This document shows positions 3,449 through 62,049 of a stretch of DNA of 64,000 nucleotides, in pieces (positions within the stretch are counted from its first letter, which is position 1; every line of letters begins with the position of its first letter). The notes below the pieces were generated by a model. The model was not told where the DNA came from. It saw only the letters and a program-made list of their open reading frames with translations, and searched no databases. The stretch spans positions 185,938,001-186,002,000 of the forward strand of contig NC_042998.1 of the NCBI RefSeq assembly GCF_006345805.1, in the 5' to 3' direction. Source of the stretch: Octopus sinensis (Eukaryota). The position numbers and the translations under genes are program-made.

Positions 3449-3856
3449 ATCTATGCCCAAGGTCTTATAAACTTCTGATTTGTTATCCAGGTGCGCATTT
3501 AGTGTTCTACGGGGGAAGGGGTTTAAACTCCAGGCCCTTGTGAAGGTAACTAAACCAGAAAATGAAGAAGTCTAAGAGATAAGCTTCAAATATACTGCCC
3601 ACTTAGTTTGTGGCAAACATTTGCACTAACTTTCTGCTATTGATATTTCCTTAAAGTGTTACTGGTCCTACAAAAACCTTCACCGTTGAAAAGAAATCAT
3701 CTGTATGGGAACAGATGCAATATTGGTTTATACATCGAAGCTGATGGGTGAAGATATGTGTGCGTGTGTGAGCGTGTGTGCGTACGTGCGTGTGTATGTA
3801 TGTATGTATGTATGTATGTATGTATGTATGTATATACACATACATGCACACACACG

Positions 3857-4646: not shown

Positions 4647-4767
4647 CTATCTCTCTCTCTCTATCTCTCAGAGAGATATGACAGAAAAAATTAGAAACAA
4701 AGAACTCGAATAAGATCGTAAACTCCGACAAAACAAGAAACCTATACGCGGCTGATAATGATGTTTA

Positions 4768-11172: not shown

Positions 11173-11545
11173 TTGGCAGAATCTTTAGCACGCCGAGCGA
11201 AATACTTAGCGGTATTTTGTCTGCCGCTACGTTCTGAGTTCAAATTCTGCCGAGGTCAACTTTGCCTTTCATCCTTTCAGGGTCGATTAAATAAGTATCA
11301 GTTACGCACTGGGGTGGATATAATCGACTTAATCCGTTTGTCTGTCCTTGTTTGTCCTCTCTGTTTTTAGCCCCTTGTGGGCAGTAAAGAAATAGGTATT
11401 TCGTCTGCCGATACGTTCTGAGTTCAAATTCCGCTGAGGTCGACTTTGCCTCTCATCCTTTCAGGGCCGATAGATTAAGTACCAGTGAAACACTGGGGTA
11501 GATGTAAATTTCAGGCCTTGTACCTATAGCAGAAAGGATTGTTAG
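11173..11545 (+). mobile_element. SINE family A, dimeric
   Basis: Head TGGCAGAA...GTTCAAATTC with Pol III boxes, centre GCCTTTCATCCTTTC...AAGTACCAG, and a second 5'-truncated monomer starting at GGTATTTCGTCTG. Confidence 0.85.
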
Positions 11546-18347: not shown

Positions 18348-18759
18348 GGATTTTTTCGGTTTGAACGACAGTTTTTTAAAATAATTTCCACGTAACTAAA
18401 CACTTTTAAACTTCGTATACTGGTAGAATGTGTCTATAAAACATCTTTTTCTCTTGGCTTTATTGAGAATATTCTATAGTTTGTAAGATATTTGTTGTTT
18501 TTTTCTTCTTCAAATTCTGCAATTTCAACCAATCAATGACGTTTATTGAGGTGAAAACATTCTTTGCCGTATGAATATGTCCCTCGTTCAAGAAACAGAT
18601 TGGGTTTATTTACATTTCTGAAGAAAAAAATATACCCTTCCCCCCACCCCTAACCCTAAAACAGATTGAAATGCAATAGATCGATATTAGGGTCATAATT
18701 ATGGGTGACAATTTCATATGACACCGCTAGAAAAACTGCCGTTCAAACCGAAAAGATCC
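18348..18759. mobile_element. MITE, GG...CC termini, 8-bp TSD (Merlin-like)
   Basis: TIR GGAT(C/T)TTTTCGGTTTGAACG..CAGTTTTT, perfect TSD ATGAAAGG, second copy at 53270-53687. Confidence 0.9.
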
Positions 18760-20859: not shown

Positions 20860-21275
20860 AGGCGGCGTTCGCACGCCCGACAAAATACTTATCATCATTT
20901 CCTGTCTTTACGTTCTGAGTTCAAATTTCGCAAAGATCGACTTTACCCTTTATGCTTTTGGAGTCGATGAATTAAGTACCAGTCAAATACTGGAGTCGAT
21001 GTAGGCACCTCCCCGCAAAATTTTTGCTGTGTCTATGATGTAAATTATTATTACTTAATATTAATGTGGCAGTGAGCTGGTAGAATTGTTAGAGCATCGG
21101 GGAAATGCCTTTAAGTACTTTTATTCAGAGTTTTTACATTCTGTGTTCAAATCCCGAGGAGGCTAAGTTTGCCTTTTATCTCTGAAGGAGCGTTAAAATA
21201 AGTGCCAGACAAGCGCTGGGATCGATGGTATCCATTAACACTCTCCCTTCAAATTTGCTGGAATTGTGCCTAAAT
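20860..21275 (+). mobile_element. Two old family A SINE copies
   Basis: Diverged heads at about 20860 and 21067 with GTTCAAAT box B and centre motifs. Confidence 0.7.
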
Positions 21276-21574
21276 CAGAAACTATTACGTTTCACACAAT
21301 TATTACTTAGCGTTATAGAATTGTTGCAAATGGCTGATGCTGGAAAACACAAGAGAAAATACATTATATTACTTACTGTCGTAATTCATTACGTTCAACT
21401 CCTACATGAGGTCGGGCTTGTCTTTCATCCCTCATAGCTAAACCTATAAGTAACAATAATGTACTCGCCAAAAAAAAATGCTAAACTTCCCTTAAATCTC
21501 ATTCTACCGTCTTCAAAAAAAATGGGCGATTGAAAGAAACTCATCGAAGATGTGGACGGTATGAACACCTCTGA

Positions 21575-21795
21575 AAGGTGGCGAGCTGGCAGAAACGTTA
21601 GCACGCCGGGCGAAATGCGTAGCCGTATTTCGTCTGCCGTTACGTTCTGAGTTCAAATTCCGCCGAGGTCGACTTTGGCTTTCATCTTTTCGGGGTCGAT
21701 AAATTAAGTACCAGTTACGCACTAGGGTCGATATAATCGACTTAATCCGTTTGTCTGTCCTTGTTTGTCCCCTTGTGAGTAGTAAAGAAATAGGT
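21575..21795 (+). mobile_element. SINE family A (young)
   Basis: Complete copy with TSD GGTATGAACACCT(C/T)TGA at 21558 and 21793. Confidence 0.9.
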
Positions 21796-22784
21796 ATGAA
21801 CACCTTTGATCACATATCTTCGATGAAACAGTAACAACGAAGATGATGATGACAATGCTATTACAGCAGAATCAATTTAATTAACTGCACTCAGTTCCCT
21901 TTTAGCAATTATCATTTAATTTAAATGTGCAATTAGCTAAATGTCTAAGTTAATTTATCAATTAACATGATACCTAAGAAAGAAGCCATTTTATAAACAT
22001 TATAAGTGCTGTTGAGCAAGAGAGAGATTCACGTTCTGCTAGTTTTAATTCCATACTGAAATCTTTCAACTTTACTAACGTTGTTAAAGATATGAACATC
22101 ATCCAATCGTATAAGCAATCAACGGAAATGCCTCTATGAGGCGAGACAACAGTCATATATCCTTCAGATTACACGTACTGTTTTTAACGAAAAACATATT
22201 GAATGAGCTTAAAAAAATAATAATCGTGATGGTCATGGCTGGAACGCTTTTAGTAATAGGCATATTTAATTAAGGACGACCTTGGGGTAAACAACAATAA
22301 CAAGAACAATCCTCCTCTTGTATTACTTAAGCCAAGAAATTGTTGTTAATTATATTATGATATCAACTTCTTAGTTACGTTTATTGCTTTATTGCTTCCA
22401 CCTGCTGTGAAGGCTCACGCACACACATACATATGCGCTCGAGCACGCTCACACGCACTCACACGCACTCACACGCACTCACATGCACCCACACGCGCGC
22501 CCTTACACATTCACAAAATAATATGCACACATGTACTGAGCGATTTTATATTACAGACACTGTTGTAGGTGTGTCTTCGTTCCGTGAATGATTATGTAGG
22601 CTTATTCTTCCAGCTTTCCTTACCATCTTAAAAGCATCGACAGGACAAGAAAAATATTTAACTTTCTCAAGCTGTCATTTACTATCAAACGAGTATTTGA
22701 CCTTTGAAATAGATCGCTTGGAGCCAGAGGAATATAACCAATTGATTATTTCTGTTGCTGTTCCTTTGTAGAATGAACAGTTTT

Positions 22785-22946
22785 TTTTTGTTCCTTCTCG
22801 AGCAACGCCTGGCTCATAAGGGCCGGTTTCCCGGTTTCCTTGGCATATAGGTTCTCCACCTGGACGCAGGAGGAAAGAATGAGAGAAAGTTGTGGCGAAA
22901 GAGTCAGCAGAAGTTCGCCATTACCTTCTGCCAGAGCCGCGTGGAG
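22785..22946 (-). mobile_element. 3' part of family V SINE
   Basis: Similar to 1-130. Minus strand ends GAAACCGGCCCTTATGAGCC...GAAGGAACAAAAA. Confidence 0.7.
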
Positions 22947-23280
22947 TTCTGAGTTCAAATTCCGCCGAAGTCGACTTTGCTTTTCATCCTTTCGGGGTCG
23001 ATTAAATAAGTACCAGTTACGCACTAGTGTCGATATAATCGACTTAATCCGTTTTTCTATCCTTGTTTGTCCCCTCTGTATGTAGCCCGTTGTGGGCAAT
23101 AAAGAAATTGGTATTTCGTCTGCCTTTACGTTCTGAGTTCAAATTCCGCCGAGGTCGACTTTGCCTTTCATCCTTTCGTGGTCGTTAAATTAAGTACCAG
23201 TTGCATACTGGGGTCGATATAATCGACTGGCCGCCTCCTCAAAAGTTTCGGGCCTTGTGCCTAGAGTAGAAAAGAATATC
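22947..23280 (+). mobile_element. SINE family A, headless dimer
   Basis: Two monomers joined at GGTATTTCGTCTG. Confidence 0.85.
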
Positions 23281-24579: not shown

Positions 24580-24772
24580 ATTAATTAGGCAATAATAAAA
24601 TACAATGGATATGTACGTATTTACTACATTTGCCCGACATTTCAGGGGTAACTTCCTCTTAGCCCATTTTTTAGTAAGGCTGGCCACCCTCCTCGTAACC
24701 TCATCTCAGTTTCTATCACTTCTTGTTTGTCTGACTCGAACCAGACCCAAAGCATCTTCGGTCTAACGAACC

Positions 24773-25002
24773 TATTTCTTTACTACCCACAAGGGGCTAA
24801 ACACAGAGAGGACAAACAAGAACAGAGAAACGGATTAAGTCGATTACATCGACCCCAGTGCGTAACTGGTACTTAATTTATCGACCCCGAAAGGATGAAA
24901 GGCAAAGTCGACTTGGCGGAATTTGAACTCAGAACGTAACGGGAGATGAAATACGGCTACGCATTTCGCCCGGCGTGCTAACGTTTCTGCCAGCTCGCCG
25001 CC
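24773..25002 (-). mobile_element. SINE family A (young)
   Basis: Complete copy with perfect 18-bp TSD TCTTCGGTCTAACGAACC at 24755-24772 and 25003-25020. Confidence 0.92.
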
Positions 25003-25245
25003 TCTTCGGTCTAACGAACCACAAAGCTGATCAGCATGGACTGGTTTCTCCGGGTGCCCAGCTGCAAGTCCTCAGCTATTCCTGCTGAGATTACTGAGCA
25101 GTGGAAAGAGATGGTTACCATTGTGGTGTACGTTTCTTAGTTCAAGTGAGATGCCTCTCGACACTTTCAGCATTAATAGAGTAATTAGGAAAAGAGAAGC
25201 TAAATTATATAAATAACGATCATGGATTACCACAGGGACAACGAC

Positions 25246-25478: not shown

Positions 25479-26215
25479 ATAATGACGATAATGACGATGA
25501 TTCCAGAAATGATAAACCATTATTGCAAAAAAACAAAAAACAACAGAAATCCCAAAGTATTCGAATTTTTTGAGAAATTGTCATAAATAAGTTTACGAAA
25601 CCAATGAATGTTTTGTTAATGGAAAATAATCTACGGGGAAAATAAAGCAAAATATATTAATAACTAAAACTGCTGAGAAAGAACATATTGAAGCCGTTGG
25701 GGAACAATTATGAAGATATAAAGGCGCAAAGAAACACTGACACCGAAAAATAACAAGGAAAGGGTAAATTGGTTATCAATAAAAACGCGTTGAAATGTTA
25801 TTAGAAGGGAAGAGTAACAGGAAATATGTTGAAGTTGACTAATAAAGACGAAAACCTTTAGGGAAAACAAGTGAAAGCAATATATGTGGTTGTTTGGGCA
25901 AATATTTTTATATCTCAATTAGAATAATCTTTTAATAACTGGCATCGAATCGTATATTAATGTTCTCCAGATTAAAAAGAAAATGACGGATTTCCAAAAT
26001 GACAGGCTAATGTCAATGCTTTAAACGTCTTACAAAAAGTTGTAAATGTCTGACCTAAATACTAAATATTTATAATGTATAGATGGACATAAGAATAAGA
26101 ATAAGACACAAGGCATAATACTTAAGAATAACAACGTAAGAGTGAAAAAAGAAAGGGCAAGTGTTGTACACAAGTATTCTTGGAAGAATCAATTAATTGA
26201 CTGAGAAAAATATAT

Positions 26216-26445
26216 GTATCTTTATTACCAACAAGGGGCTAAACTTAGAGGGGACAAACAAGGACAGACAAACGAATTAAGTCGATTACATCGACCCCAG
26301 TGCGTAACTGGTACTTAATTTATCGACCTAGAAAGGATGAAAGGCAAAGTCGACCTCGGCGGAATTTGAACTCAGAACGTAACGGCGGACGAAATACGGC
26401 TACGCATTTCGCCGGCGTGCCAACGGTTCTGCCAGCTCGCCGCCC
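26216..26445 (-). mobile_element. SINE family A (young)
   Basis: Complete copy with TSD TTGACTGAGAAAA. Confidence 0.9.
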
Positions 26446-26759
26446 TTTGACTGAGAAAATATGCTGAAACAAGATAATGAGGTAGACAAAGCGTATAATA
26501 TTCCTGAAGATTAACCAACATTATAGTTTTCTTAAGCATCAGTAAGCACCCGGTAAACCTGCAAGAAGAAATTGTAATTCAGTATTGTACTTTCCTCTCA
26601 ACTAGCTTCCTTATTTTCTCACAGTTTTGTTAACCTTTTTAATATCAATCCAACCGAGGCCTCCAATACGAAACTATTGGTATTATAATCAAAATGTCAT
26701 AACAAAAATTGCCCTGAGGTTCCAATTGATCAACACCAACATAGCACGCCAATATATAT

Positions 26760-28838: not shown

Positions 28839-28884
28839 GAATACAATGTATTTCTATATTTCATTCATTTCATTGTGTAGATCT

Positions 28885-29289
28885 CTCTTTCTCTTTTCTT
28901 TTACTTGTTTCAGTCATTTGACTGCGGCCATGCTGGAGCACCACCTTCTAGTCTAGTAAATCGATCCCAGGACTTATTCTTTGTAAGCCTAGTACTTATT
29001 CTATCAGTCTCTTTTGCTGAACCGCTAAGTTACGGGGACGTAAACACACCAGCATCGGTTGTCAAGCAATGGTGGGTGGACAAACACGGACACACAAACA
29101 TATATACACATACACATATATATACATATATACGACGGGCTTCTTCCAGTTTCCGTCTACCAAATCCACTCACAAGGCTTTGGTCGGCCCGAGGCTATAG
29201 TAGAAGACACTTGCCCAAGGTGCCACGCAGTGGGAATGAACCCGGAACCATGTGGTTGGCAAGCAAGCTACTTACCACACAGCCACTCA
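28885..29289 (-). mobile_element. SINE family B
   Basis: Full-length reverse complement of the family B consensus. Confidence 0.9.
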
Positions 29290-32084: not shown

Positions 32085-33749
32085 ACACACACCAAGTGCA
32101 CTGTGAAAAACTGCGAAACTTAAGAAGGTTATAATTGTTTTCTACTCTCAGTAGAGACCCGAAGACGTTATTAAATGATGGATTTCAATTTTAGGCTTGG
32201 CGTGAAATAAATCGGAAACTACTTTTCAATTCACTGATTATGCATTCAATTTGCCCGACAATCATGGTAGGAGCAAAAAATATCGCGGATTTAAAAATGT
32301 TAGTCTTCGCGATGCTTGCTTCACTGAACGAATATGTAGAGTGATAGAAAGTGGTGTGGCTTACACTAGACGGACACACGCATATACTCACGAACACATA
32401 CGTAGATACATACATGTTATATGAATATATTCATAAATACGCGCTTGCGAAGATGTGTGTGTCTCAGAAAGAGAGACAGGAAGATAGAGAAAGAGAGAGT
32501 GTGTGCATGTATCTGTCTGTCTGTACATATATACACATATACACACATACGCACAAACATACATACATACATACATACATACATACAAACATGCATGCAT
32601 ACATACATACATACATACATACATACATACGCGTGTATATGTATGTGTATATATGTATACTTATCTCAGTATGTATAAATGTATTAAAGTATATACATGT
32701 GTGAATAAGCATGTAAGTGTATATATATTTGCATTAAAGTGTGTAAATACCTACATGTATATATATATATATATATGCGAATATATATATGTATTTATGT
32801 GTGTATGTATGTATATTTACATACATACATACATATACATACATACATACATACATACATACATACATACATACATACATACATACATACAAAATTTGTC
32901 AAGATGGCTGGTTGTTGAGAAATTTGCCCCGTGACTGGTTGTTGACAAATTTTTCTGCCTTGTAAGGGTAATTTACCCAGTATGTCTGCTGTTCTAACGG
33001 TAACTCTGCGTTCGAAAAAGTCCCACCTTCTTATATATATCGTACAATACCTATTTCAACGCTTCTAATAAAAGCAACAAATATTTCTTTATTTACATTT
33101 ATACTCACACAAACACACATACACGCGCACACACAAATACATACATATCTATATATATATATATATATATGTATGTATATATGTGTATATATACACACAC
33201 ATATACACACGCATATAATGCCGCTCAAAGCAGCGATGAATAAAATGTATTCGTGTGAAATTTTTACACGTTTGTGTATAATTGAACGTGATAGGAACTA
33301 TCGCTGCAAGAATAGACCCCGGAAAATATTTTCCAGCTAAACAATTTGTTTTGGGCTGCGATCGACGTCATTACATCCTGGAATGCATGCATTTCTGCAT
33401 CATTCTGCTTCGTCAGCTATGCAAACTAACTCACGCTCACATCCTGGTATTTATAGAATTTTACTTATGAAATTAGCATGCAGAATGTATATTGATGTAC
33501 AAATTATTTGGTCTCTCAGCGACTGAGTTACTTTGCGTACCTGAGAAAACAGTACGACACAGAAGCTGGCGACTTTACGCGAATATATTTTATTCAAGGC
33601 TACTTTGCGCGGTATCAATTATTCTCAATTCGAGTTTGACTGAGCGACACGCAGATCAGTAAACTCCTCATCTGCTGAAGTATATTTCTATACTTACCGG
33701 GCTGGGAGACACTGAATTAGTGTTTTTAGCTAATGAAATAGAACGACAC

Positions 33750-34156
33750 GCGCAGGAGTGGCTGTGTGGTAAAGTAGCTTGCTAACCAACCACATGGTAT
33801 CGCGTTCAGTCCCACTGCGTGGCATCTTGGGCAAGTGTTTTCTGCTATAGCCCCGGGCCGACCAATGCCTTGTGAGTGGATTTGGTAGACGGAAACTGAA
33901 AGAAGCCTGTTGTATATATGTATATGTATATATATATGTATATATGTGTGTGTTTGTGTGTCTGTGTTTGTCCCCCTAGCATTGCTTGACAACTGATGCT
34001 GGTGTGTTTACGTCCCCGTCACTTAGCAGTTCGGCAAAAGAGACCGATAGAATAAGTACTGGGCTTACAAAGAATAAGTCCCGGGGTCGATTTGCTCGAC
34101 TAAAGGCGGTGCTCCAGCATGGCCGCAGTCAAATGACTGAAACAAGTAAAAGAGTA

Positions 34157-34157
<1 letters not shown>
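33750..34157 (+). mobile_element. SINE family B (tRNA head, CORE-like start, internal microsatellite)
   Basis: GCGCAGGAGTGGCTGTGTGG box A, GTTCAGTCC box B, CTTGGGCAAGT, and tail GACTGAAACAAGTAAAAGAG followed by (GA)n. Confidence 0.9.
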
Positions 34158-34227
<70 letters not shown>

Positions 34228-34534
34228 GCGTCTTACAATTTAATGACGCCACTCCCAGCCCAAAGCAAAATCCGTATTTACACATGTTTAGATGGAGAAT
34301 TTTCTCCCGGAACAATTCTTGCAGTGATAGATCTTATCACATCCAATAACGCTCAAAGGTGTTAAGCGTGATTTATGTGAGTGGAGTTATTTGGTTCTGT
34401 TTGATTAATAACATAATTTTTCTGATTACATCTCTCTTCATCATCTACCAAAAGTTTAGCAAGTGATTTTAAGACGGTGTTAACAATCAGTTCAAGGGAA
34501 CGAGCACCTATATATGTATATATACATATATATA

Positions 34535-34932
34535 GGCGCAGGAGTGGCTGTGTATTAAGTAGCTTGCTTACCAACTACATGATTCCGGGTTCAGTCTCAC
34601 TGCGTGGCACCTTGGGCAAGTGTCTTCTACTATAGCTTCGACCGACCGAAGCCTTGTGAGTAGATTTGGCAGAGGGAAACTGAAAGAAGCCCGTCGTGTA
34701 TATACGTGTATGTATATGTTTGTGTGTCTGTGTTTGTCCCCCCACCAAACATCGCTTGACAACTGCTGCTGGTGTGTTTGCATCCCCGTCACTTAGCGGT
34801 TCGGCAAGAGAGACCGATAGAATAAGTACTAGGCTTACAAAGAATAAGTCCTGGGGTCGATTTGCTCGACTAAAGATGGTGCTCCATCATGGCCGCAGTC
34901 GAATGACTGAAACAAATAAATGAATAAAAGAA
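34535..34932 (+). mobile_element. SINE family B
   Basis: Same structure as 33750-34157. Confidence 0.9.
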
Positions 34933-35099
34933 TATATATATATACACATATATATGCATACATACATACATAAATACATACATACATAAATACATACATA
35001 CATACATAAATACATACATACATAAATACATACATACATACATACATACATACATACATACATACATACATACATACATACATACATACATACATACAT

Positions 35100-36253: not shown

Positions 36254-37546
36254 CGAGGGACGTTCAATAAGTAATGCCCCTGACCCACTTCCCATGGCAG
36301 TAGAGCAACGAAACTTGGCACATTTATTAGTCTTTTTTTTACATAGGAACCACCCAGAGTTACGCATTTCTCCCATCGTTTGATACAGCTCTGGAGACCG
36401 TTTTTGTAGAAGACCCCAGTTTGGTCCTCCAACCACGACGTGACTTCAGAAATCAAGGCTGCATCATCTGGGAAATGTTTTCCTTTCAAAAACAACTTCA
36501 TGGCTGGGAAGAGGTGAAGATCAGAGGGTGCAAGATCAGAAGAGTAGGGGGGTGGGGGAGGAGTTCATAGCCGCATGCCTGTGCTTCTGATCTGGCGACA
36601 CGCGAGTTGTGGACCGGAGCGTTGTCCTGCAGGAAGAGGATGCCTTTGCTGATCTTGCCCCGCCTCTTGATTTTGATAGCTTCTCTTAATTTCTTCAAAA
36701 GTGAAGCATAATAGGCTCCTGTAATTGTGGTACTCTTTGCCAGGAAATCTGTCATCACTACTCCGTCCTGGTCCCAGAAGACTGTGAGCATGACCTTGCC
36801 AGCGGAGGGCTGCACCCTTGCCTTCTTTGGAGGAGGTGAGTCACGGTGCTTCCACTGCAATGACTGGGCTTTGGTCTCTGGATCATAGTGATGGACCCAG
36901 GTTTTATCCTGTGTAATCAGTCTTCTGAAAAATTTTGACTCATCTTCTTGGCACATCTCCAAATTCATCCTCGGGCACTCGACGCGTTCTTGCTTCTGGA
37001 AAGGTGTGAGCAACTTGGGAATCCATCTGGCAGACACCTTTTGCATATGCAAATGGTCATGAATGATAGTTTCCACAGACCCGGTACTAATCTTGACCTC
37101 ATGGGCTATTTGGCGAATAGTTATGCATCGATCTTCCAAAATGGCAGCCTCAACTTGACGGATAGATGCCTCATCAATGGTAGAAGGGGGGCGACCAGAT
37201 CTGGGAGCTGTTTCCACAGAGTTCCGACCATGTTTAAATTCACGATGCCAGCGTTTTACAAGGTCATATGATGGTGCATCATCACCATAAGTTACTTTCA
37301 TTTCATCAAAAGTCTCCCGTGGTGTGCGTCCTTTCAAATACAAAAACCGGATCACTGCTCGACACTCAACTGGCTCCATTTCACACTTGACTCTGTTAAA
37401 ACACCTGTTAATCAGAAACCACAATTAGTTCAGAGCTGTAATTTGCCACTTAATCTATAGAGATATAAATAATTGCACATGCAAAATTTCAGCTAGATCA
37501 AACAACTGCAAGTGGGTCAGGAGCATTACTTATTGAACGTCCCTCG
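36254..37546 (-). mobile_element. Full-length mariner transposon (irritans/Himar1-like), 1293 bp
   Basis: ~37-bp TIRs CGAGGGACGTTCAATAAGTAATGC(C/T)CCTGACCCACTT with TA on both sides. Confidence 0.95.
36327..37379 (-). pseudogene. Mariner DD34D transposase, frameshifted
   Basis: MEPVECRAVIRF...PRSGRP...WIPKLL...ITQDKTWVHHYDP...QDNAPVH...HPP, then a frameshift in the G-rich run near 36550, then YSPDLAPSDF...RWEKCV. A second slip occurs in the T-run near 36335. Confidence 0.92.
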
Positions 37547-40296: not shown

Positions 40297-41324
40297 CTAA
40301 AAGGAAATAACAACAATAATAAATAAATGGAATTTAACACAGTCAGTTGATTATTGTAATTTTGACAATCTGGTAAAACCCTTCGGAATTTCTGTATCAG
40401 ATATAAGCGGTTTTATGTTGCCTGAATTTTAAAGCTATGGGGACAGAACGATATACAACTCGCCGATTGTTCTGTCTATATAACAGCTGCAGAAACTCTC
40501 TATGCACAAAGTTAATAAAGACAATCTTTTTTCTCATCACAAGGAACCCTGCAGCCGACTGCTTATCTCTCGCATTTGAAGCATTAAGCGGATAAAATTG
40601 TCACTCGCTTGCTTTGGATAAATATTAATTTCTAACTATGCAATACGGGTTGGCATATTTGAGTGTGTGTGTGTGTGTGTGAGTTTGAGCGTGTGTTCGC
40701 GCATGCGCGCGATTAATTGATCCCAAGTGCTTGATTAGATATTTTATCTTATCGGTTCTATCAACTCTCGTAATAGTTCAATCTCGCCAGGTTTTTTAAC
40801 CCGAAACTTTACCGATTCTGCAAATCCATTATTCATAGTAATTTCTAAAAGTGAAAAATTTCTAACATACTTAATGTAGTGAGCTGAAAGGAATGTTTAA
40901 CGAAATGAAATTCCATCAGTAATAAAAAGAAAGGTAATTAGCATTAATGACAATTCTTGACAATAAAGACAAAGAAAAGAACTCTGAAGTTTAAACTGAT
41001 TCAAAAATTAAATTGAGACATGCAGTGAAGAGTGAGCCTCAGATGATAAGTTTTGTGATAACTCCGAAGACGTTTCGATCTTATAAGATCTTTTCAGCGC
41101 AGTATAATCTAACGCGTACTTACCAGATCTTAGAACGACGATGGGTAGGCGTTATATCTCAGTCTACCCTAGTACTTGACCGAGACATTTTGAGTGAACT
41201 CCGGCGAAACTAACAACATTGGAATTAGAGTTCAGAATGTAAAGAGTCTTATAAATCACAAAGCGTTTTTAGTCCGTCTTTCTGAAGTTTCCGTCACCTC
41301 AGCGAAACAGTTATCAATGAATAA

Positions 41325-41735
41325 TGCGGCGAGCTGGCAGAATCGTTAGCACGCGGGGCGAAATGCTTAGCAGTATTTCGTCTGCCGTTACGTCCTGAGT
41401 TCAAATTCCGTCGAGGTCGACTTTGCCTTTCGTTCTTTCGGGGTCGATTAAATAAGTACCAGTTACGCACAGGGGTCGATCTAATCCACTTTATCCGTTT
41501 GTCTGTCCTTGTTTGTCCTTTCTGTGTTTAGCTCCTTGTGGGTAGTAAAGAAATAGGTAGTCTGCCGCTACGTTCTGAGTTCAAATTCCGCCGAGGTCGA
41601 CTTTGCCTTTCATCCTTTCGGGGTCAATAAATTAAGGACCAGTTAGGCACTGGGGTCGATATAATTGACTTAATCCGGTTGTCTGTCCTTGTTTGTCCTT
41701 TCTGTGTTTAGCCCCTTGTGAGTAGTAATGAAATA
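41325..41735 (+). mobile_element. SINE family A dimer with one TSD pair
   Basis: 19-bp TSD GAAACAGTTATCAATGAAT at 41304-41322 and 41736-41754. Confidence 0.92.
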
Positions 41736-41777
41736 GAAACAGTTATCAATGAATCAAACTTACTTAAAATAGACACA

Positions 41778-44851: not shown

Positions 44852-46686
<1,835 letters not shown>

Positions 46687-46930
46687 ACAACTTCTCCTCT
46701 TTCTTCTCTAGGCTCTTCTTGTTTATTTATTCTTCACTCTGATGACTCTCCATGTTTCAAATCGGTTTTATTACATAACTATGATGAATATTTTTAGCAT
46801 ATCAATGGCAATACAACACAACATTGGAAGCAGAAACAGCTGTTAGATGGAATGCAGTCTATTTGTATTGAATAAATAAATAGTAATATGATCTAAGTCA
46901 ATTGTTGTTCATCAATATTTCTCCCATTTT

Positions 46931-47145
46931 AAGGCGGTGAGCTGGCAGAAACGTTAGCACACCGGGCGAAATGCTTAGCGGTATTTCGTCTGTCTTTACG
47001 TTCTGAGTTCAAATCCCGCCAATGTTGACTTTGCTTTTCATCCTTTCGGGATCGATAAATTAAGTACCACTTGCGTATTGGGGGTCAATCTAATCGACTG
47101 GGTCCCTCCCACAAAACTTCGGGCATTGTGCCTAGAGTAGAAAAA
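46931..47145 (+). mobile_element. SINE family A (older tail type)
   Basis: TSD AATATTTCTC(C)CATTTT. Confidence 0.88.
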
Positions 47146-47205
47146 ATATTTCTCCATTTTCTGTGTGTGTGTATACATATGTATATATATATATATGTAT
47201 GTATG

Positions 47206-47284
<79 letters not shown>

Positions 47285-47321
47285 GTGTGTGTGTGTGTGG
47301 TGTGTGTGTGTGTGTGTATGC

Positions 47322-47381
<60 letters not shown>

Positions 47382-47842
47382 ATGTATTTATATATATAAT
47401 ATTACATACACACACACAACACACACATACATATTGCTGACATCATACGAATGTATGTATGTATGTATGTATGTATGTATGTATGTATGTATATATTGCG
47501 TGAGTTAGTTGTAAAAATATCCGGCTTTCTATCAGGGTACACAGTAAAACTATTTGATGAAGGAAATCTATAAAATTTTTTAAAAAACCTACTGACTTGT
47601 AGCTATGTTTTTATTGGAAACGTGTCGATGTGGACCCTCTGATATATAAAACCCGTGATTGAAATACTTTCCGGCCATCTTGCTCGCCACTAGATACTTA
47701 ACTATGAATATTCAGAGGGTAGAATACGCGTCGTAGAAGTGTGTGCCTTTATAGTACAATGATATACAGATCTCATATCAACACATCTTATGAATAATGA
47801 GATAGCTATCGTTTACCAAGATGAAGCAATCATCATGTGTGA

Positions 47843-49086: not shown

Positions 49087-51089
49087 GTGAGGCTTTGTAA
49101 CTATTCTGAACGGAATACACACACATACACACACACACATGTGTGTGTAAGAGAGAAAGAAATAAAGAGAAAGAGCGAGGGAGAGAGAGAGAGAGAGAGA
49201 AACGGTGGGGATCTTGTGTATTGTAAGTTTCCGATAAAAGATAGGTCCTCACTCTCCACCACTAATGTAGGCAAGACTGCAGTAGAGAAGATGGTATTTA
49301 ATGATAGACTAAACAGATGGTACAGAGAAGATATATTCCTTTTTTTTTCTATTTCTTTTTCATGATGAAAGAGATGGGCAAAAATATTTATCATGAATCA
49401 AACAATTTGGTTCTTGCCAACACTTCGCTCTGAAAATATCATGAAAATCTTGTAAAAGTGGGGAAAAAAAAATTCTACTTTGTTTAGAGCTACAATGATG
49501 CATAACGACAAATTTGGCCTCTTTTGCCAAAATTGGCGTCAAAGTTCTTTTAAAAACTTCAGCCTCAAATTAATCTTTAATTAAATTTACTGAGTATAAA
49601 GAATCCAATTCAAAATTAACAATATTACACCTATATACTATATCAACTAAGAAATCTACTTCGCCTTATGGAGTTCACAATATTAATAACCTTGTGTCAC
49701 TAGAGTCTGTACTGTTGTATTTTATGAGGTTGGGCTGCTTGCCAAACCCTTTTTTTTACATACTTTTCCCAAGGGGTGAAGATTCAACACAGAAACTGGA
49801 AGCTTATGAACAAAGACGAAGGTTTTTGTTGGAGATAAAAAGCTTGCTTCCCAGTTCTTTTTGTCTCAACTGCCGAACCACATTTTATCTATTTATCTAC
49901 AAAGCGCAGAAACACCACGAAGTTATGTTTTGTAATGAAGATTCTGATAGTGATAACAGCCTGTTCCACAGCACAAAAAGATTTCAGATGTTTAACTAAA
50001 GTCTACATTCCAATGTTCAAACAAATGAATGGAGAATGCTATCGTTGCCAAATCAAGAACGTTGCTGAATTTCTATCAGAAACGTTCGTGTTCTCTTGAT
50101 CGATGCTCTGGACTTAGCTCTGGAGTTCGCTGCCCATATCTCCAGTAACTCTTTACACATCCTTCAAAGAGTATTATCCAGTCCCGGAAAATCAGCGGGT
50201 GCTCCTGGTAGCTATAATTGCCTTAAAGAATTATAAAAAGTATAGCATTAAGGTAAAGCATTTATATGAAATATAAAATAAAATAAAAATAATAATGTCG
50301 GATTTCTCTGTTCCATTCACTCATATCTCGAGCTACTAGCTTTTAACTAGCGCAAGTAAATCTCTTGATCCACGTGCTCATCACCCGTATTTTGTTTATA
50401 CTTAATATAAGGTGACATCTTAGGGCAATGCTAGCACAATGACTTTTGTGCTCATTATCCAAGCAATAGAATCTCACCCTTTTCCGCCTTTCCTTTCCTT
50501 TTTTTATGATAGTAATTTCTTTTCGCAGTTCTCCAACCGATAAAAAGCTTCGATTTACCACAACCATTCGCTTTAAGGCATATTCTCTTTATCTGCTTTA
50601 CAGTCTAAACACCTCTATTTTTTCTCTTACCTAAGGCGTAAAACATCGTTCCAATGGAAAAAAAGCACTTAGTTTTCGCTAGAGAGAATATAAAATAATC
50701 TCATAGCGAGTTCGACATTCGGTTTCGATTTCTCGTAGTTTTTCCATTTTATTTACATCGTTAATACCATGTCGCAAATAATGGGATTTGTCCTTGTTTG
50801 GAGAAGGCAACGGCCAGAAAAATTATGAAACAGTCAGAGCAAATTATATCCAGAACCTGATATACTTTAGAGAGAGGAATATATAAAGATAACCACACTA
50901 ACAACTGAATGAAACTACGAGGCAAATAGACAGGTGCATTCAAGAAGTGAAGGGTCTCAATTTTTTTTTCCCGATTCCAAACGTTACTTTCAACCTTAGT
51001 GTCTCTTTATGCGTACACGTGTAGTTCCTCGATTTAATTTGGCAGAGTTCAGTCCTCTCCAAGTTATATTAACAGTGGCATACTTTTCT

Positions 51090-51287
51090 CACGGATTTTT
51101 GTCAGTGAACAGGTCGCGGTCTTAAAGCGACGAAAATATTTTGACAAATTAAACTTAAATGTTGAAGTGAATCGAACGGCTTTTGTGTGTTTCTTAAATG
51201 GCTTACAAACACCTTCCACGCTGCAATTGTTTTCGTTTCAGCACACGATCTGAGATCAAATCACTTGCTATGCAAGTACATCTCCGT
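51090..51287 (+). mobile_element. ~200-bp hammerhead-bearing repeat (family H), copy 1
   Basis: Near-identical to 54009-54206, 59446-59643 and the inverted 59295-59437. Confidence 0.9.
51098..51148 (+). ncRNA. Minimal type-I hammerhead-like motif with G3-C8 core variant
   Basis: TTTGTCA-GTGAACA-G-GTCGC-ggtcttaaa-GCGAC-GAAA-ATAT-TT-TGACAAA. Confidence 0.6.
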
Positions 51288-53269
51288 AACAATATTTTAA
51301 TTCTTATAGAAATCTATTGCAATCTTTGAAACGTGTTACAGTGTGTCTCATCTTAAAAAGGTAACCTCTTGCAAGCTTCCGACCTATCGCTCTCATTCCC
51401 AACAACTCAATGGTCATAAAAGCAATTGTTAACAATCGCACCTTTCCTTTCATAAAGACAGATATGTCAAACACATGCTCTTCTGTGTCACTCACTAGTG
51501 TTCTCTCTACCCCGAAAGAACTTCATCAAAAGCAATATTGTTGTTGCTGACTTCAGTAAAGCTCTCGTACGTGTAATTCAAGTTATCTTGTATTTAAAAC
51601 ATGATTTTTTTAAAAATGAAAAGTTAGTTTGTAACCTCAGTTTTTAACTCTCAAGAGGTTAAATAAATATGTCATAACAATGTCGTAACTACGACATCCC
51701 TTAGTACACACACTTCTCCCTCCCTTTTTCTCACATTCACCCACAATGATGATGATAATGATGATGATAAATATTAATTAATTTCTAAAAAAAAAAACCA
51801 TGCCAGTTTTATTTAATTATAAAAACAATTTTGTTGTTATTGTATAGGTTCAAGTCAACCCCTTTATAATCAAAACCATTTCAATTGTGATCATCCTGTC
51901 TTGGGTTTTTTCATTTCATCCGGACTCCAGCATCAAATGTCTTTCCTTTCCATTTTTTAAGATGGTAAGGTGTAGTTTAAGGGGTTTGTCTGACATTTCT
52001 AACCGGAAGCGTGCCCATATAGACACTACAACGCCACAGTAGAACATCTGACTCTAGAAGCAATCTCATTGCTGAGATATATCAACCAATGTCATTAAAT
52101 GACATAATCTTGCTGGGATAATATACTATGATTATATTATTTGCAATTAATAAATAACTGGTGTGTTAACAGCGCTCTGCTTCTCTACAATGTATATCTA
52201 TAGATTTTAGTCAATACTATAAGTAACAGTTAATACTGTATGTAGATGTAGTATATAGATGTCTCTATATGCAATATTTTCGTTGTCAAATCTTTAAGAT
52301 ATGAAAATCGGCCAATCCTTAAATACTTAAGCCCAAAGTAACAGGAAGTTCTTCTGGGGGTACGCAGAGTGTGATGAAATCCCCATACTGAATTAGACTG
52401 GTCAAACTGATCCCTTTGTTTTGTCTACGAAGATACTGCACTAAGTATTAAGATATTTATATAAACCTATTACATATAATGTTGGCTAGCCGAACCCAGC
52501 ATTTTGAACAAATAAATAAATAAATAAATTTTAATACTTCCCCCTCGAAACTGCTGGCTTTTTGCCAAAATTTGAAACCAATATAAAAACAAGAGAAAAA
52601 AGAAGTTAAAAGAAAGATTTTTTTTTATTATTAAGGGTTGGTAAATTGTGTACAGTATAAATAATTCCAACGTGTTTTTATCTCATCTTCTACCTCGAAA
52701 TATAACAAGTTCTTAAACCTAATTTCATTGAAGAACATGAGTGTTGTGTCTCAATAACGATTACAAGAATCCAAACGACAACTGTTCCATTGTGTTTCAT
52801 GACGAAAGAGAGCGAGAGAGAGAGAAACCAGTCTTGCCGTGACATATGTTGTGCACACCGAAGTCTTTCTTTTCTTATTCGAAAAGTGGGAGGGGAAGAA
52901 AAACAAGGAAAACACTAGCTTGCCGCTACTAATATTTCTGCTGCTGTCAATCTAAAGCAGTAGCGGTAGGCCAATACGTCTGCATGGACACTAATGAGGA
53001 AAACAGACGTCTTGTTGAAAGTGAATATGTTTACATTACTGACGGGGAAAAATCCACAACCTGCAAATTTGAATGAAAAAGTTTTATTTAGTAACAAAAA
53101 TAAGTAAAAAAAAAAGTGAGTCTGCGAGTCCACACTTTTGGTGAGAGTGGACTCGATGAATGCCGCTACATCATCTTCGTACGTTGAAAATATATAAAAC
53201 CTAATGTCTTGTCAATAGAAATCAACAGCCATCTGATTGGTAAACACCTTAGATAAGAAGACAGCCAAA

Positions 53270-53687
53270 GGATCTTTTCGGTTTGACCGGCAGTTTTTTA
53301 AAATAATTTCCACGTAACCAAACACTTTTAAACTTCGTATACTGGTAGAATGTGTTTATAAAGCATCTTTTTCTCTTGGCTTTATTGAGAAAATTCTATA
53401 GTTTGTAAGATATTTGTTGTTTTGTTTCTTCAATTTCTGCAATTTCAACCAATCAATGACCGTCTATTGAGGTGAAAACATTCAGTGCCGTATGAAAATG
53501 TCCCTCGTTTAAGAAATAGATTGGGTTTATTTACATTTCTGAAGAAAAAAAGATACCCTTCCCCCCACCCCTAACCCTAACCCTAAAATAGATTGAAATG
53601 CAATAGATCGATACTAGGGTCATAATTATGGGTGACAATTTGATATGACACCGCTAGAAAAAACTGCCGTTCAAACCGAAAAGATCC
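53270..53687. mobile_element. MITE (Merlin-like), copy 2
   Basis: Same element as 18348-18759, with perfect TSD CAGCCAAA. Confidence 0.9.
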
Positions 53688-54001: not shown

Positions 54002-54206
54002 GATGCAGCACGGAGTTTTGTCAGTGAACAGGTCACGGTCTCAAAGCGACGAAATATTTTGACAAATTAAATTTAAATGTTGAAGTGAATCTAATGGTTT
54101 GTGAGTGTTTCTTAAATGGCTTATAAACACCTTCCACGCTGCAATTGTTTTCGTTCCGGCACACGATCTCAGATCAGGTCACTTGCTATGCAAGTACATC
54201 TCCGTG
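54002..54206 (+). mobile_element. Family H repeat, copy 2
   Basis: GATGCAGCACGGAGTTTTGTCAGTGAACAGG...GTACATCTCCGTG. Confidence 0.9.
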
Positions 54207-56990: not shown

Positions 56991-57104
56991 AAATTTTGGA
57001 CAGGGTTTAATAGTACTTCAGAATTTTCATGACAGAAGGATAGAATGTAAATATATATGAATTTAAAGCTAATAGCGGCTTATAAATGTCAGATTTTATC
57101 TTTG

Positions 57105-57257
57105 CATGGCTGTGTGGTAAGTAGCTTACTGCCCCACCACATGGTTTCAGGTTCAGTCCCTCTGCATGGAACCTCGGGTAAGTGTCTTCTAGGATAGCCT
57201 CAGGGCGGCCAAAGTCTTGTAAGTGGATTTGGTAGACGGAAACTGAAAGAAAACTGT

Positions 57258-57288
<31 letters not shown>

Positions 57289-57345
57289 ACCCCACCACTG
57301 CTTGACAATCGGTGCTGGTGTGTTTATGTCCCCGTAACTTAGCTG
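57105..57345 (+). mobile_element. SINE family B, 3'-truncated
   Basis: Head and body only. Confidence 0.8.
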
Positions 57346-57612
57346 CTATCCTTTTTGTTTTCATTCCATTTTCGATAATTTTCAATTCATTTAAATTACA
57401 GGATAGTTTCCCCCACTGCCTTTCTTGACCAGAATTAATCTTTAAGCTGGTTTGTTAACCTCACTAATGTTATGGTTTGGCCAACTGCCTTTCCTTGTTT
57501 TCCAGAAAAAAAAAAAATTATTTTAAAATTAACCATAAAATAACCCCGCGTCTTATTAAAAGGGTAGGTTGTGAGTGGAGTTCGACAGTGGTTATTTAGT
57601 TTTCCCGCTTTA

Positions 57613-57848
57613 GGGCGGCGAGCTGGCAGAAACGTTAGCGCGCCGGGCGAAATGCTTAGCGGTATTTCGTCTGCCGCTACGTTCTGAGTTCAAATTCCAC
57701 CGAAGTCGACTTTGCCTTTCATCCTTTCGGAGTCGATTAAATAAGTACCAGTTACGTACTGGGGTCGATATAAACGACTTAATCCATTTGTCTGTCCTCG
57801 TTTGTCCCCTCTCTGTGTAGCCCCTTGTGGGTAGTAAAGAAATAGGTA
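57613..57848 (+). mobile_element. SINE family A (young)
   Basis: Complete copy with diverged TSD GGT(T)ATT(T/C)AGT(T/C)TTCCC. Confidence 0.9.
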
Positions 57849-58129
57849 TTCAGTCTTCCCCAGAACACTAGCAAGTCTACACTTACAATTTATATATAAT
57901 AAATATATCTCAGTCCTATAGCTGCTTTTGTTTCTTTTGCTTTAGTTTTATAATGTTTTGGTTGTGATTTTAAGAAATTTACAAGGATTTACCGACACCG
58001 ATAATAGAATGTTGTTTTATTGTGAATCAACAATGAAAACACTTCACACGCTAACTGGAGGCAGGCAAAGTAACACCGAAGTAGACGCCATCTGTTTAGC
58101 TGTCAATTTATTCGGCTTAAAATACTCCT

Positions 58130-59294: not shown

Positions 59295-59643
59295 GAAAAC
59301 AATTGCAGCATGGAAGGTGTTTGTAAGCCATTCAAGAAACATACAAAAGCCGTTAGATTCACTTCAACATTTAAATTTAATTTGTCAAAATATTTCAGCT
59401 GCTTTGAAACCGCGACCTGTTCACTGACAAAATTCCGAGATGCAGCACGGAATTTTGTCAGTGAACAGGTCGCGGTTTCTAAGCAACAAAAATATTTTGA
59501 CAAATTAAATTTAAATGTTGAAGTGAATCTAACGGATTTTGTGTGTTTCTTGAATGGCTTACAAACACCTTCCATGCTGCAATTGTTTTCGTTCCAGCAC
59601 ACGATCTCAGATCAGGTCACTTGCTATGCAAGTACATCTCCGT
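59295..59643. mobile_element. Family H repeat, head-to-head inverted pair
   Basis: Arms 59295-59437 and 59448-59590 with a 10-nt spacer. The plus copy continues to 59643. Confidence 0.9.
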
Positions 59644-59949
59644 AATTCTAGAAAAAGATATATATTAAAGTTTAGTCTTCAAGCAGAAAAGTAAGAAACT
59701 CCGTTTTGATATTGACTCCTCTTTCACGCGCACGTACACACACACATGCTTGCGCTCACACACACACAGATTCCATCTGAATAGACAGCGTTGAGGGTGC
59801 AATATATGGTGCAGATTAGTGGAGTACGCAGTTGGTTATATCTTGATACTTCTGAAACGTTTCGAATGTAAGGCAAATACAGTGAATAGACCAGTTCGTG
59901 GTGATCATGTCTGGTAGTTGTGCACTAAATGTTATTAACGCTTAATTAT

Positions 59950-60921
59950 TTAGTCGGGCTCTAAAAGTTGCTTGAGTTTGTTCAGCAAGCACTTCAATCG
60001 GATCACGTAGTTCTCGCTTGTCTTATTGGATATGAACTGCCCTTTTCTAATAACATAGCCATTATATCCGATGTTTTCGTGCACCACATGTCTAATCATT
60101 GTCTTCAACACATCGATATGATTGGCAATGTCCCTCATTAACTTGCCGTGATTCACGTTTATTATGCTCTGAACTTTCTGGACAAACTCGACTTTTCTGG
60201 CAATGTCTGACCGTCGAAAATATTCTTTATTTTCCTTTTCACCGAGGAATCCACATTCCCGCCAGAAACCAGGAGCTCTTTTCTGGGTCTAAAGACGAAA
60301 AGCTCGGAGCCATTTAAAAACGTTGCAATTTCAGAATCACTTTGGTTGGCAGGTAAGGCATCGAGAACGGCCTGACATTTCATCGTCTACGTTAGATTCG
60401 AAGCTTCCGTGTTCTCTCTCTATCCGCTCAGTCGAAGTCGACTCTCGGTTACTCGATGGATCAGTGTCCTTCAGTCAGTTCTATCCTGGGTCGCTTCTTT
60501 CAGATTGGCTATGTCCATTCCGGTATCACTCTTGATGGTGTCAAGCCAGCGGGTTCTTGGTCCGCCTCTTTCTCTCTTGCCACTGCCCATTCCGAGCATG
60601 ATGTCCTTTTCCAGGGATTTTCTCCGCATAATATGACCGAAATATGCCAATCTATGCTTGGTGATCCTAGCTTCTAGCGAAATTTTCGGCCTTATCTGCT
60701 TAAGAACTTCTCCATTGGTGAGCCTTGCTGTCCATGGAATCCGTAAAAGTCTTCTCCAACACCAAAGCTCGAATACATTAATTCTCTTCTGGTCAGCTTT
60801 CTTTAGTGTCCAGGTCTCGCATCCATATGTTGCCATTGGGAAGACAATTGCATTCACCAATCTGCATTTGGGAGACTTATATTTCTTTAAAATTTTGTTT
60901 ACAAACATTTGACACACCCTG
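59950..60921 (-). mobile_element. maT/DD37D-like transposon 5' half, interrupted by an RTE
   Basis: TA|CAGGGTGTGTC terminus at 60921. SDSEIATFL, MRDIA..IDV...IRHVVHE.I.Y..Y..RKGQFIS and LLNKLK. Confidence 0.75.
60415..60876 (-). mobile_element. RTE (BovB-like) LINE 3' fragment
   Basis: LVNAIVFPMATYGCETWT...FELWCWRRLLRIPWTAR...YFGHIMRR.SLEKDIMLG...RWLD. Confidence 0.92.
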
Positions 60922-61639
60922 TATGTATGGGGGGGGGAGCTGGGTATAGCTTTAAGCTACAGCTGGTGGTAAGGCTCTGTGTGTGTGTGTGTGTATGTCC
61001 TAGGTATGACTTCAAACTGAAGCCGGTGGTAAGGTTATATGGAAGTTTCAAGTTTTTGAGGAGTGAGCAACCACCCTTTAGCCACTATTGTTCCCAGGTC
61101 TACTCTGACCTGGCGTAGTACACCTGTAAGGTTTTCAACTATGGCTTAATTAGCATGTGAACCACTGGAAATGAAGGACCCCTAGATCTCGTTGGAACTT
61201 CCTTCTACCAAAAGATAAACTCGCATAGAAAATACCTGAAATGCAGTTTGTTTCTGGTGGTCCCAGTCTCTGTTGTGCCACAGGTTTTATAACTGATTGC
61301 ACTAAAAAGTGGGTTCAGTGCTGTTGCTGTGCAACACTTTATCCACTCAAAGCAAATTCACACACTGGAACGTCTTGGACACTCGGAGTTTACTGAGTTT
61401 AGAAAGTGATCTTAATCGGTCACTAGTTGACTTCCACTGTGTGTGTGTATGTGTGTGTTTGTGCGTGCGTGTGTGTGTACATGTGAGTATGTGTGTGTGT
61501 GTATGCGTGTGTGTGTGTGTGTATGTGTGTGTGTGTGTGTACGTGTGTGTGTTGTGTGTGTGTGTGTAATTCAGGTGGCTAGACGCAATTTTAAACCAAA
61601 TACGAAATAATTCATCGTCACGAAAAGTGACCAACGGTG

Positions 61640-62000
61640 CTGTGTTTCAATCATTAGACTGCGGAAATGTTGGGGTATCGTCCCTGTTGTCGAACCGCTA
61701 AAATACGGGGACGTAAACTCAACAGCACCGATTGCCAAGCGGTGATAGGGGAACAAACACAGAAACAAACACACACATGTACACACACTCATATATATAT
61801 ATATGTACATATATATATATATGTACATATATATATACGACGGGCTTCTTTCAGTTTCCGTCCACCAAATCCACTCACAAGGGTTTGGTCGGCCCGAGGC
61901 TATAGAAGAACACACTTGCCCAAGGTGCCACACAGTAGGACCGAACCCAGAACCATGTTGTTGGAAAGCAAGCTTCTTACCACATAGCCATTCTTGCGCC
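61640..62000 (-). mobile_element. SINE family B
   Basis: Reverse complement of the family B consensus. Confidence 0.85.
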
Positions 62001-62049
62001 TAAAAGGTTGAAAGGCAAAGTCAGCCTCAGCGACATTTGAACTCAGAAC

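What the first reader, a model, noticed from the sequence alone, without database searches (positions are those of the whole stretch)
51098..51148. Multi-copy 200-bp element carrying a hammerhead-like motif with a swapped G3-C8 core pair
Seen: stem I TTTGTCA/TGACAAA (7 bp), core GTGAACA, one extra G, stem II GTCGC/GCGAC, GAAA, a palindromic AATATT mini-stem III, then UU before stem I closes. All four copies in the window keep GTGAACA and stem I; the other three have lesions in stem II or GAAA. Known: the hammerhead core is C3-U-G-A-N-G8-A with a C3-G8 tertiary Watson-Crick pair, and minimal type-I hammerheads with palindromic stem III mark Penelope-like elements and may act as dimers. Inference: GUGAACA is the compensatory G3-C8 version. 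Searches for CUGANGA would miss it, so this could be an overlooked ribozyme-bearing, retrozyme-like non-autonomous family.
Basis: partly seen in the sequence, partly recalled or inferred. Interest (0 to 1): 0.8.

Follow-up and report, generated by a model that had tools for sequence, protein, structure and literature searches.

The report
Swapped-core hammerhead in octopus Penelope retrotransposon
This 200-base repeat is the detached end of an intact Penelope-like retrotransposon, present in thousands of copies, and it carries a hammerhead-ribozyme motif with one core base pair naturally flipped (G3-C8), a version known from lab mutants that likely still cuts RNA slowly, though cutting is untested.

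Summary
The motif is real and exactly as described (51098-51148). The 200-bp repeat is not a stand-alone retrozyme or MITE. It is the terminal repeat (pLTR) end of an autonomous Penelope-like element: the same G3-C8 motif lies about 1 kb behind an RT+GIY-YIG ORF and 56 nt before its start codon in natural full copies. At least 4,945 copies exist, with PLE hallmarks (inverted partners, two fixed 3' ends, variable target duplications). Sister families in the same genome carry the homologous motif with C3-G8 or U3-A8, so the G3-C8 swap is supported as a natural compensatory change. Rfam hammerhead models miss it. Lab studies show that this swap rescues cleavage. My searches found no natural G3-C8 in print, but the largest survey (Lunse 2017) was unreadable, and this scan noted G3-C8 candidates behind Penelope RTs in two other genomes. 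Cleavage is untested: most copies derive from uncut, apparently capped RNA, an excess of ends at the cut site was inconclusive (p about 0.06), and relatives tolerate other core changes. Verdict: new variant of a known kind.

The parts
51090..51290 (+). Solo copy of the pLTR end (5' about 206 nt of the transcript) of an autonomous Penelope-like element, family A; lacks the first about 8 nt
   Evidence: continuity with ORF in natural copies
51098..51148 (+). Minimal type-I hammerhead motif
51105..51112 (+). Core strand G3-U-G-A-A7-C8-A9 plus extra G; G3-C8 is the swapped tertiary pair
   Evidence: 69 of 79 copies G3-C8; C3-G8 and U3-A8 in sister families
51113..51131 (+). Stem II (5 bp, G10.1-C11.1) with a 9-nt loop that varies between subfamilies
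51132..51141 (+). G12-A-A-A15.1, palindrome AAUAUU (predicted dimer helix III), U16.1, U17; predicted cut 51141/51142
   Evidence: homoduplex only -0.2 kcal/mol
51198..51290 (+). First 31 codons of the element's RT-GIY-YIG ORF (AUG at 51198, 56 nt after the predicted cut)
   Evidence: window translation equals the N-terminus of natural full copies; L114
51233..51290 (+). 'Tail' between the two recurrent 3' ends (inferred reverse-transcription start sites at about 51232 and 51290)
   Evidence: 31 of 45 inverted partners end at element position 141-149
54002..54205 (+). Second solo copy (stem II mismatch, one A lost)
59437..59645 (+). Third copy, starting G-AGATG (G12 mutated)
59295..59436 (-). 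Tail-less inverted partner, head-to-head with the third copy; flanking TCTAGA repeat fits a target duplication
   Evidence: (I12)

Best explanation
The repeat is the terminal-repeat end of an autonomous Penelope-like retrotransposon, and the motif is its minimal hammerhead with a naturally swapped G3-C8 pair that likely cuts slowly at U17 and is predicted to need a dimer or the element's protein. SHOWN: the motif sits about 1 kb behind the RT+GIY-YIG stop codon and, in the upstream repeat, 56 nt before the AUG; sister families hold C3-G8 or U3-A8 at the same place; subfamily changes fall in loop II, not the core. INFERRED: transcription starts at the A of AGATG; reverse transcription starts internally at element position about 148 or about 206 and runs off at the capped 5' end (extra G), which sheds thousands of passive 150-206-bp copies; these templates were mostly uncut, so cleavage is rare or late. 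INFERRED: the clade's U17 allowed the swap, because G3 pairs only weakly with U17 whereas it would trap C17.
For: Motif behind the ORF in 7 loci (L099, L100, L115-L118, L133; 919-1044 nt in the three measured). L114 joins motif, AUG and 608 codons with RT motifs in one natural copy. PLE signatures in 90 copies: 45 inverted partners, 31 of them ending at 141-149; target duplications of 8 nt or more in 28 of 61 non-microsatellite loci against 2.3% in shuffled pairs; 29 of 90 next to (TA)n; 33 of 90 start at -1..+8. G precedes AGATG in 19 of 26 non-genomic junctions (17 of 24 after merging duplicates, p 2e-8), with a mixed base before it. Families A, U and S form one clade (SH-aLRT 100, quick tree) with 3-8 pairs G-C, U-A (91 of first 100 of 1,266) and C-G. 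On 9 chosen motifs the 3-8 cell is paired 9 of 9 with three pair types and stem II is 100% paired. Core columns 0 of 12 under 90% against loop II 5 of 8; structured 1 of 34 against loop II+N7 4 of 8 variable, p 0.003. The older lineage (72-83% DNA identity at the ORF end) keeps G3-C8 in 7 of 9 copies with a readable core. Literature: the G:C swap is the only rescuing double mutant of the CUGA region (PMC9901934), and it partly rescues a PLE hammerhead that is protein-assisted (PMC11167929). The extra nucleotide, G10.1-C11.1, palindrome and U17 are typical of PLE motifs (PMC4209133).
Against: No activity was measured. The core is not significantly more conserved than non-coding flanks (1 of 34 against 5 of 54, p 0.40). 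The MFE fold extends stem I by a G3-U17 wobble (1.4 kcal/mol more stable than the active layout), and the AAUAUU dimer helix is only -0.2 kcal/mol. The extra base is G whereas the published consensus has H. Relatives tolerate harsher core changes: A9C in family S and L266, U15.1-A16.1 in L265, a degenerate core in L271. 394 copies have a non-C at position 8; 35 of the first 100 listed are G3-G8, about twice the A8 count, and include a small multiplied derivative. Junctions at the predicted cut are rare (123 rows in all), and their excess is inconclusive (15 vs 8 and 4 at neighbouring positions after inspection; p 0.056; microhomology confound). In vitro, hammerhead cleavage was not needed for insertion by another PLE (PMC11167929).
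Confidence: 0.6

Rival explanations
1. Same element and same origin, but the hammerhead-derived fold no longer cuts. It is kept as a structural site (protein binding, folding of the 5' domain for reverse-transcription start, or promoter sequence), so pairing is conserved while chemistry is not.
For: Copies come from uncut RNA. Relatives carry A9C, U15.1-A16.1 and degenerate cores. G3-G8 copies exist. The dimer helix is weak and there is a G3-U17 trap. Cleavage is dispensable in vitro for PAc (PMC11167929).
Against: The 3-8 pair is a tertiary contact of the active state and stays Watson-Crick in all 9 chosen motifs. G12, GAAA, UGA and U16.1 are invariant across families. Changes fall in N7 and loop II as in active hammerheads.
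Confidence: 0.3
2. The 200-bp unit is a self-propagating non-autonomous retrozyme that replicates through hammerhead-cut circular RNA.
For: High copy number of short units; a few tandem or internally deleted derivatives (L212-L214); retrozymes derive from PLE pLTRs (bioRxiv 10.64898/2026.07.22.740005, passages).
Against: Copies are dispersed or head-to-head, not head-to-tail arrays of unit length. They start about 58 nt upstream of the cut and stop at the two ends shared with full elements. Their 3' half is the start of the autonomous ORF.
Confidence: 0.05
3. The repeat is a DNA-transposon derivative (MITE or Helentron-type) and the hammerhead likeness is chance.
For: Short CACGG/CCGT complementarity and a 3' hairpin.
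Against: Variable-length target duplications, 5' truncation, inverted partners, (TA)n targets and direct continuity with an RT+GIY-YIG ORF; homologous canonical hammerheads behind related RTs.
Confidence: 0.01

Closest known systems
Minimal type-I hammerheads of Penelope-like elements (Cervera & de la Pena 2014, PMC4209133)
   Same: In the pLTR; type I; extra nucleotide between 9 and 10.1; G10.1-C11.1; palindromic 15.2-16.2; frequent U17; thousands of solo copies and close opposite-strand pairs.
   Different: G3-C8 instead of C3-G8 (their reported covariation is U3-A8; no G3-C8 in the supplement rows I saw); extra base G rather than consensus H; 7-bp stem I.
PAc, Poseidon element of Anolis (Frangieh 2024, PMC11167929)
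   Same: Hammerhead at the pLTR-ORF junction; two internal reverse-transcription starts inside the ORF start giving a 'tail'; AT-rich targets; uncut RNA as main template.
   Different: Here the hammerhead is 56 nt upstream of the AUG, not overlapping it; the tail is about 58 nt; G3-C8 is natural here but an engineered rescue mutant there; this ORF has a CX3CxxC linker.
Neptune/Nematis-type EN+ PLEs (Craig 2021, PMC8557442)
   Same: RT, then CX2-5CxxC linker, then C-terminal GIY-YIG; pLTR, inverted 5'-truncated partners, tails, (TA)n bias.
   Different: Clade not fixed here (no reference set in the tree); DKS in place of DKG.
Non-LTR retrozymes
   Same: Short, hammerhead-bearing, PLE-related repeats.
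   Different: Retrozymes are head-to-tail arrays with canonical hammerheads giving circular RNAs; these copies are dispersed 5'-end cDNAs of an autonomous element.

Membership tests
EN+ Penelope-like element | Single ORF with RT and C-terminal GIY-YIG endonuclease | tested here: met
   RT and GIY-YIG-type motifs read by eye in L100/L115 ORFs (motif names recalled); Atlas hits 0.96-0.98 with RVT_1/HTH_animal/GIY-YIG. Direct Pfam scan and PDB search gave no hit.
EN+ Penelope-like element | pLTR in direct or inverted arrangement, 5' truncation, tail | tested here: met
Neptune clade | Phylogenetic placement with reference Neptune RTs | not tested
   CX3CxxC linker present but shared with Nematis; no named references in the tree.
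Minimal type-I hammerhead of PLEs | Stems I and II closing the core, G10.1-C11.1, extra nucleotide after A9 | tested here: met
Minimal type-I hammerhead of PLEs | U4-G5-A6, A9, G12-A13-A14, A15.1-U16.1, H17 | tested here: met
Minimal type-I hammerhead of PLEs | Literal consensus C3 and G8 (CUGANGA) | tested here: not met
   G3 and C8 in 69 of 79 copies; no Rfam hammerhead hit
Minimal type-I hammerhead of PLEs | Watson-Crick pair between 3 and 8 | tested here: met
   G-C here; C-G and U-A in relatives
Minimal type-I hammerhead of PLEs | Palindromic helix III able to form a dimer | tested here: inconclusive
   Perfect palindrome but duplex -0.2 kcal/mol; cofold MFE did not choose it
Hammerhead ribozyme | Site-specific self-cleavage after H17 | not testable with these tools
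   Indirect junction test inconclusive
Non-LTR retrozyme | Head-to-tail arrays of unit-length non-coding repeats | tested here: not met
   3' half is coding
MITE / DNA transposon | Terminal inverted repeats with fixed-length target duplication | tested here: not met
   Duplications of 6-15 nt where found, ragged 5' ends, continuity with RT ORF

The most novel reading that the evidence does not exclude
This is an active natural G3-C8 hammerhead, amplified to thousands of copies and invisible to CUGANGA-based searches, in a lineage that has used three Watson-Crick pairs at 3-8. Its cut 56 nt before the AUG acts as a switch between capped RNA that serves as reverse-transcription template and decapped RNA used for translation or circularisation.
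Probability: 0.2. Interest if true: 0.7.

Novelty: new variant of a known kind. Interest (0 to 1): 0.45.

Why it matters
It is natural evidence for a core base-pair swap so far seen (in the papers I could read) only as an engineered rescue mutant. It shows that hammerhead surveys and statements such as 'this PLE clade lacks hammerheads' can miss whole families. One genome holds related elements with G-C, C-G and U-A at 3-8, plus an A9C variant, a ready series for asking whether PLE hammerheads must cut at all, which is an open question. The copy junctions (apparent cap G, intact motif, two internal starts) suggest how solo PLE hammerheads arise.

Tried and rejected
Rfam scan of the window and of 51050-51300: no hammerhead hit. 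ORF listing of the window: no PLE ORF nearby. The 2.5-3.2-kb tandem at C2:2.03 Mb is a host tandem repeat holding a pLTR piece, not a PLE array. Pfam and PDB sequence searches of the ORF: nothing. Intron reading of CTAAC...TTTCTCAG upstream of ATG: looks like a 3' splice site (D. virilis has an intron there), but copies share only one G upstream and no exon, so a start site with cap G is preferred; not excluded. Cut-site junction excess: inconclusive. I dropped GT- and TT-flanked rows (stem-I microhomology, slippage) before counting, inspected 19 loci at position 58, 10 of 11 at 57 and 5 of 6 at 59, and part's output was cut. A G3-G8 subfamily: inspected copies lie on different backgrounds, so mostly independent mutations. 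Sequencing runs: no RNA holder listed on record; contigs of guessed-RNA runs cover the stretch but cannot show starts, cuts or splicing, and one search was swamped by a neighbouring SINE. One search's pattern was one base too long and was redone. DNA around the closest protein relatives (P0002-P0033) could not be obtained, so their motifs are unknown; metagenome loci were used instead. The careful tree did not finish; the quick tree is reported. Lunse 2017 and Przybilski & Hammann 2007 were not held.

Full report
Observation. The motif is present exactly as described at 51098-51148, with four window copies of the 14-mer and lesions in the other three. Stems I and II are the predicted fold (z -2.6). 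The window lies in a 2.72-Gb genome, inferred to be an octopus because a protein named Octopus vulgaris falls inside one of its sister families. Exact 21-mers give 4,945 matches for the core and 3,181 for the 3' end, controls 0.

What the repeat is. Ninety copies chosen by the 3' 21-mer (the first 90 usable places of 3,181, all on contig C1) were classed. 45 have a head-to-head inverted partner (7 microsatellite artefacts dropped from 52), and 31 of these stop at element position 141-149, while forward copies stop at about 206. 28 of 61 non-microsatellite loci have target duplications of 8 nt or more (shuffled pairs 2.3%). 29 of 90 abut (TA)n. These are the pLTR, tail and inversion signatures described for Penelope-like elements (PMC8557442, passages; PMC11167929, passages). 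Following the longest 5' extensions led to an ORF with RT, a CX3CxxC linker and a GIY-YIG-type domain (motif names recalled; Atlas support; Pfam and PDB blank). The G3-C8 motif lies behind this ORF in L099, L100, L115, L116, L117, L118 and L133. Natural copies with an upstream repeat show that the element's 3' end runs on into the ORF: the AUG corresponds to window 51198, 56 nt after the predicted cut, and L114 joins motif, AUG and 608 codons. So the 200-bp repeat is the 5' end of the transcript of an autonomous element, neither a MITE nor a retrozyme array.

How the short copies likely arise (inferred). 33 of 90 copies start within -1..+8 of AG|ATG. Where the genomic upstream is absent, G precedes AGATG in 19 of 26 junctions, with a mixed base before it (17 of 24 after merging, p 2e-8). 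The simplest reading is a start site at that A and copying of the cap G (cap copying is recalled knowledge). An intron reading is not excluded. Reverse transcription starting at the two internal sites of the upstream repeat would run off at the cap and give 150-206-bp copies. Their templates were uncut at the hammerhead. Copies beginning at the cut are rare: 123 rows for three positions genome-wide, and after inspection 15 at the cut against 8 and 4 beside it (p 0.056), confounded by microhomology.

Is G3-C8 a real swap? A protein search of the genome found sister RT families. Family S (56% identity) has C3-G8 with A9C. Family U has U3-A8 (91 of the first 100 of 1,266 matches). Families B and B' have C3-G8 with the same TGTCA/TGACA stem I as the finding, and B' lies behind an RT. 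A, U and S form one clade (SH-aLRT 100, quick tree). Of 68 metagenome loci, 21 gave a palindromic motif with a Watson-Crick 3-8 pair on the RT strand (one U3-A8, the rest C3-G8, many with U17; none G3-C8). On nine motifs that I chose, three of them from family A, the 3-8 cell is paired in 9 of 9 with three pair types and stem II in all cells (related sequences, so not a probability). Within family A, 69 of 79 readable copies (117 loci examined) have G3-C8. Shared variants fall in loop II rather than the structured part (p 0.003), and the one shared stem change keeps a U-G pair, but the structured part is not significantly more conserved than the flanks (p 0.40). An older lineage keeps G3-C8 in 7 of 9 copies with a readable core among 25 loci.

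Does it cut? For: the G:C swap is the only rescuing double mutant of the CUGA region (PMC9901934, passages), and partly rescues a PLE hammerhead (PMC11167929). U17 and AU-only palindromes occur among published PLE motifs (PMC4209133, main text parts 1-2 of 4 and supplement PDF part 2). A G3-C8 variant was reported less active with C17 than with G17 (PMC3884650, passage, data not shown there), which fits the idea that U17 permitted the swap (inference). Against: a G3-U17 wobble competes, the dimer helix is -0.2 kcal/mol, 394 copies lack C8 and G3-G8 is over-represented among them, and relatives carry A9C, U15.1-A16.1 or degenerate cores. I put slow, assisted cleavage at about 0.6 and a non-cutting structural role at about 0.3. 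A role in translation is only an analogy to viral 5'-UTR hammerheads (PMC13725137, passages).

Novelty. PLE hammerheads and natural U3-A8 covariation are known (PMC4209133; PMC3088659, passages). Ten literature searches showed no natural G3-C8, and an octopus repeat annotation mentions no ribozyme in its main text (PMC13282606, passages). Lunse 2017 (about 150,000 variants, figure recalled) and Przybilski & Hammann 2007 could not be read, and supplements of the other papers were not seen; they may hold G3-C8 examples. Rfam gives no hammerhead hit. Two unchecked notes of this scan report G3-C8 motifs behind Penelope RTs in other genomes; none exist for this sequence or genome. Verdict: new variant of a known kind, interest 0.45.

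Noticed in passing
L121-L126, L131, L134 (e.g. L124:6394); L266:2497: Sister family S and a metagenome relative carry C at position 9 instead of the conserved A9 (with C3-G8 and U3-A8 respectively).
   Followed up: partly
L265 about 4690-4740; L271 about 2350-2400; L267 about 3430-3470: Related PLEs show further core variants read by eye: U15.1-A16.1 (L265), a degenerate core with G15.1-C16.1 (L271), U3-A8 with a 3-bp stem II (L267).
   Followed up: no
L215-L224; pattern count: Family U: at least 1,266 copies of a U3-A8 minimal hammerhead with a 3-bp stem I and 4-nt palindrome, also with inverted partners.
   Followed up: partly
L212-L214 (C30, C12295): Internally deleted derivative: pLTR plus about 90 codons followed directly by a second G-AGATG unit; some copies have G3-G8. 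Possible non-autonomous offshoot.
   Followed up: partly
L099:3742-3765 (- strand): The inferred start site is preceded by a textbook-looking 3' splice site (CTAAC, pyrimidine tract, CAG); 492 exact matches of the 23-mer.
   Followed up: partly
L232 (C7:20655226-20655746): Hairpin insertion with short tandem repeats that each begin at the predicted cut site.
   Followed up: no
window 51090-51289: The 5' leader (ACGGA) is predicted to pair with the 3' end (UCCGU), closing the whole 200-nt domain next to the outer inferred reverse-transcription start.
   Followed up: no
window 3331-3448 (-): 5S rRNA copy, 106 bits.
   Followed up: no
window 36498-37424 (-): Mariner-like transposase ORF fragment (family recalled).
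   Followed up: no
window 18348-18759 and 53270-53687: Two copies of another about 415-bp dispersed repeat.
   Followed up: no
window 11174-11508, 20866-21023, 21574-21797, 22946-23279, 24770-25003, 26208-26447, 41312-41736, 46916-47433, 57597-57859; also 28874-29288, 33746-34172, 34533-34980, 57104-57343, 61676-62002: Two abundant SINE-like repeat families.
   Followed up: no
window 45599-45979 (-) and 60471-60956 (-): Fragments of LINE (RTE-like) ORF ends (family recalled).
   Followed up: no
G000:C2:2024000-2039000: Host tandem repeat of 2.5-3.2 kb units, each holding a tail-less pLTR piece.
   Followed up: partly
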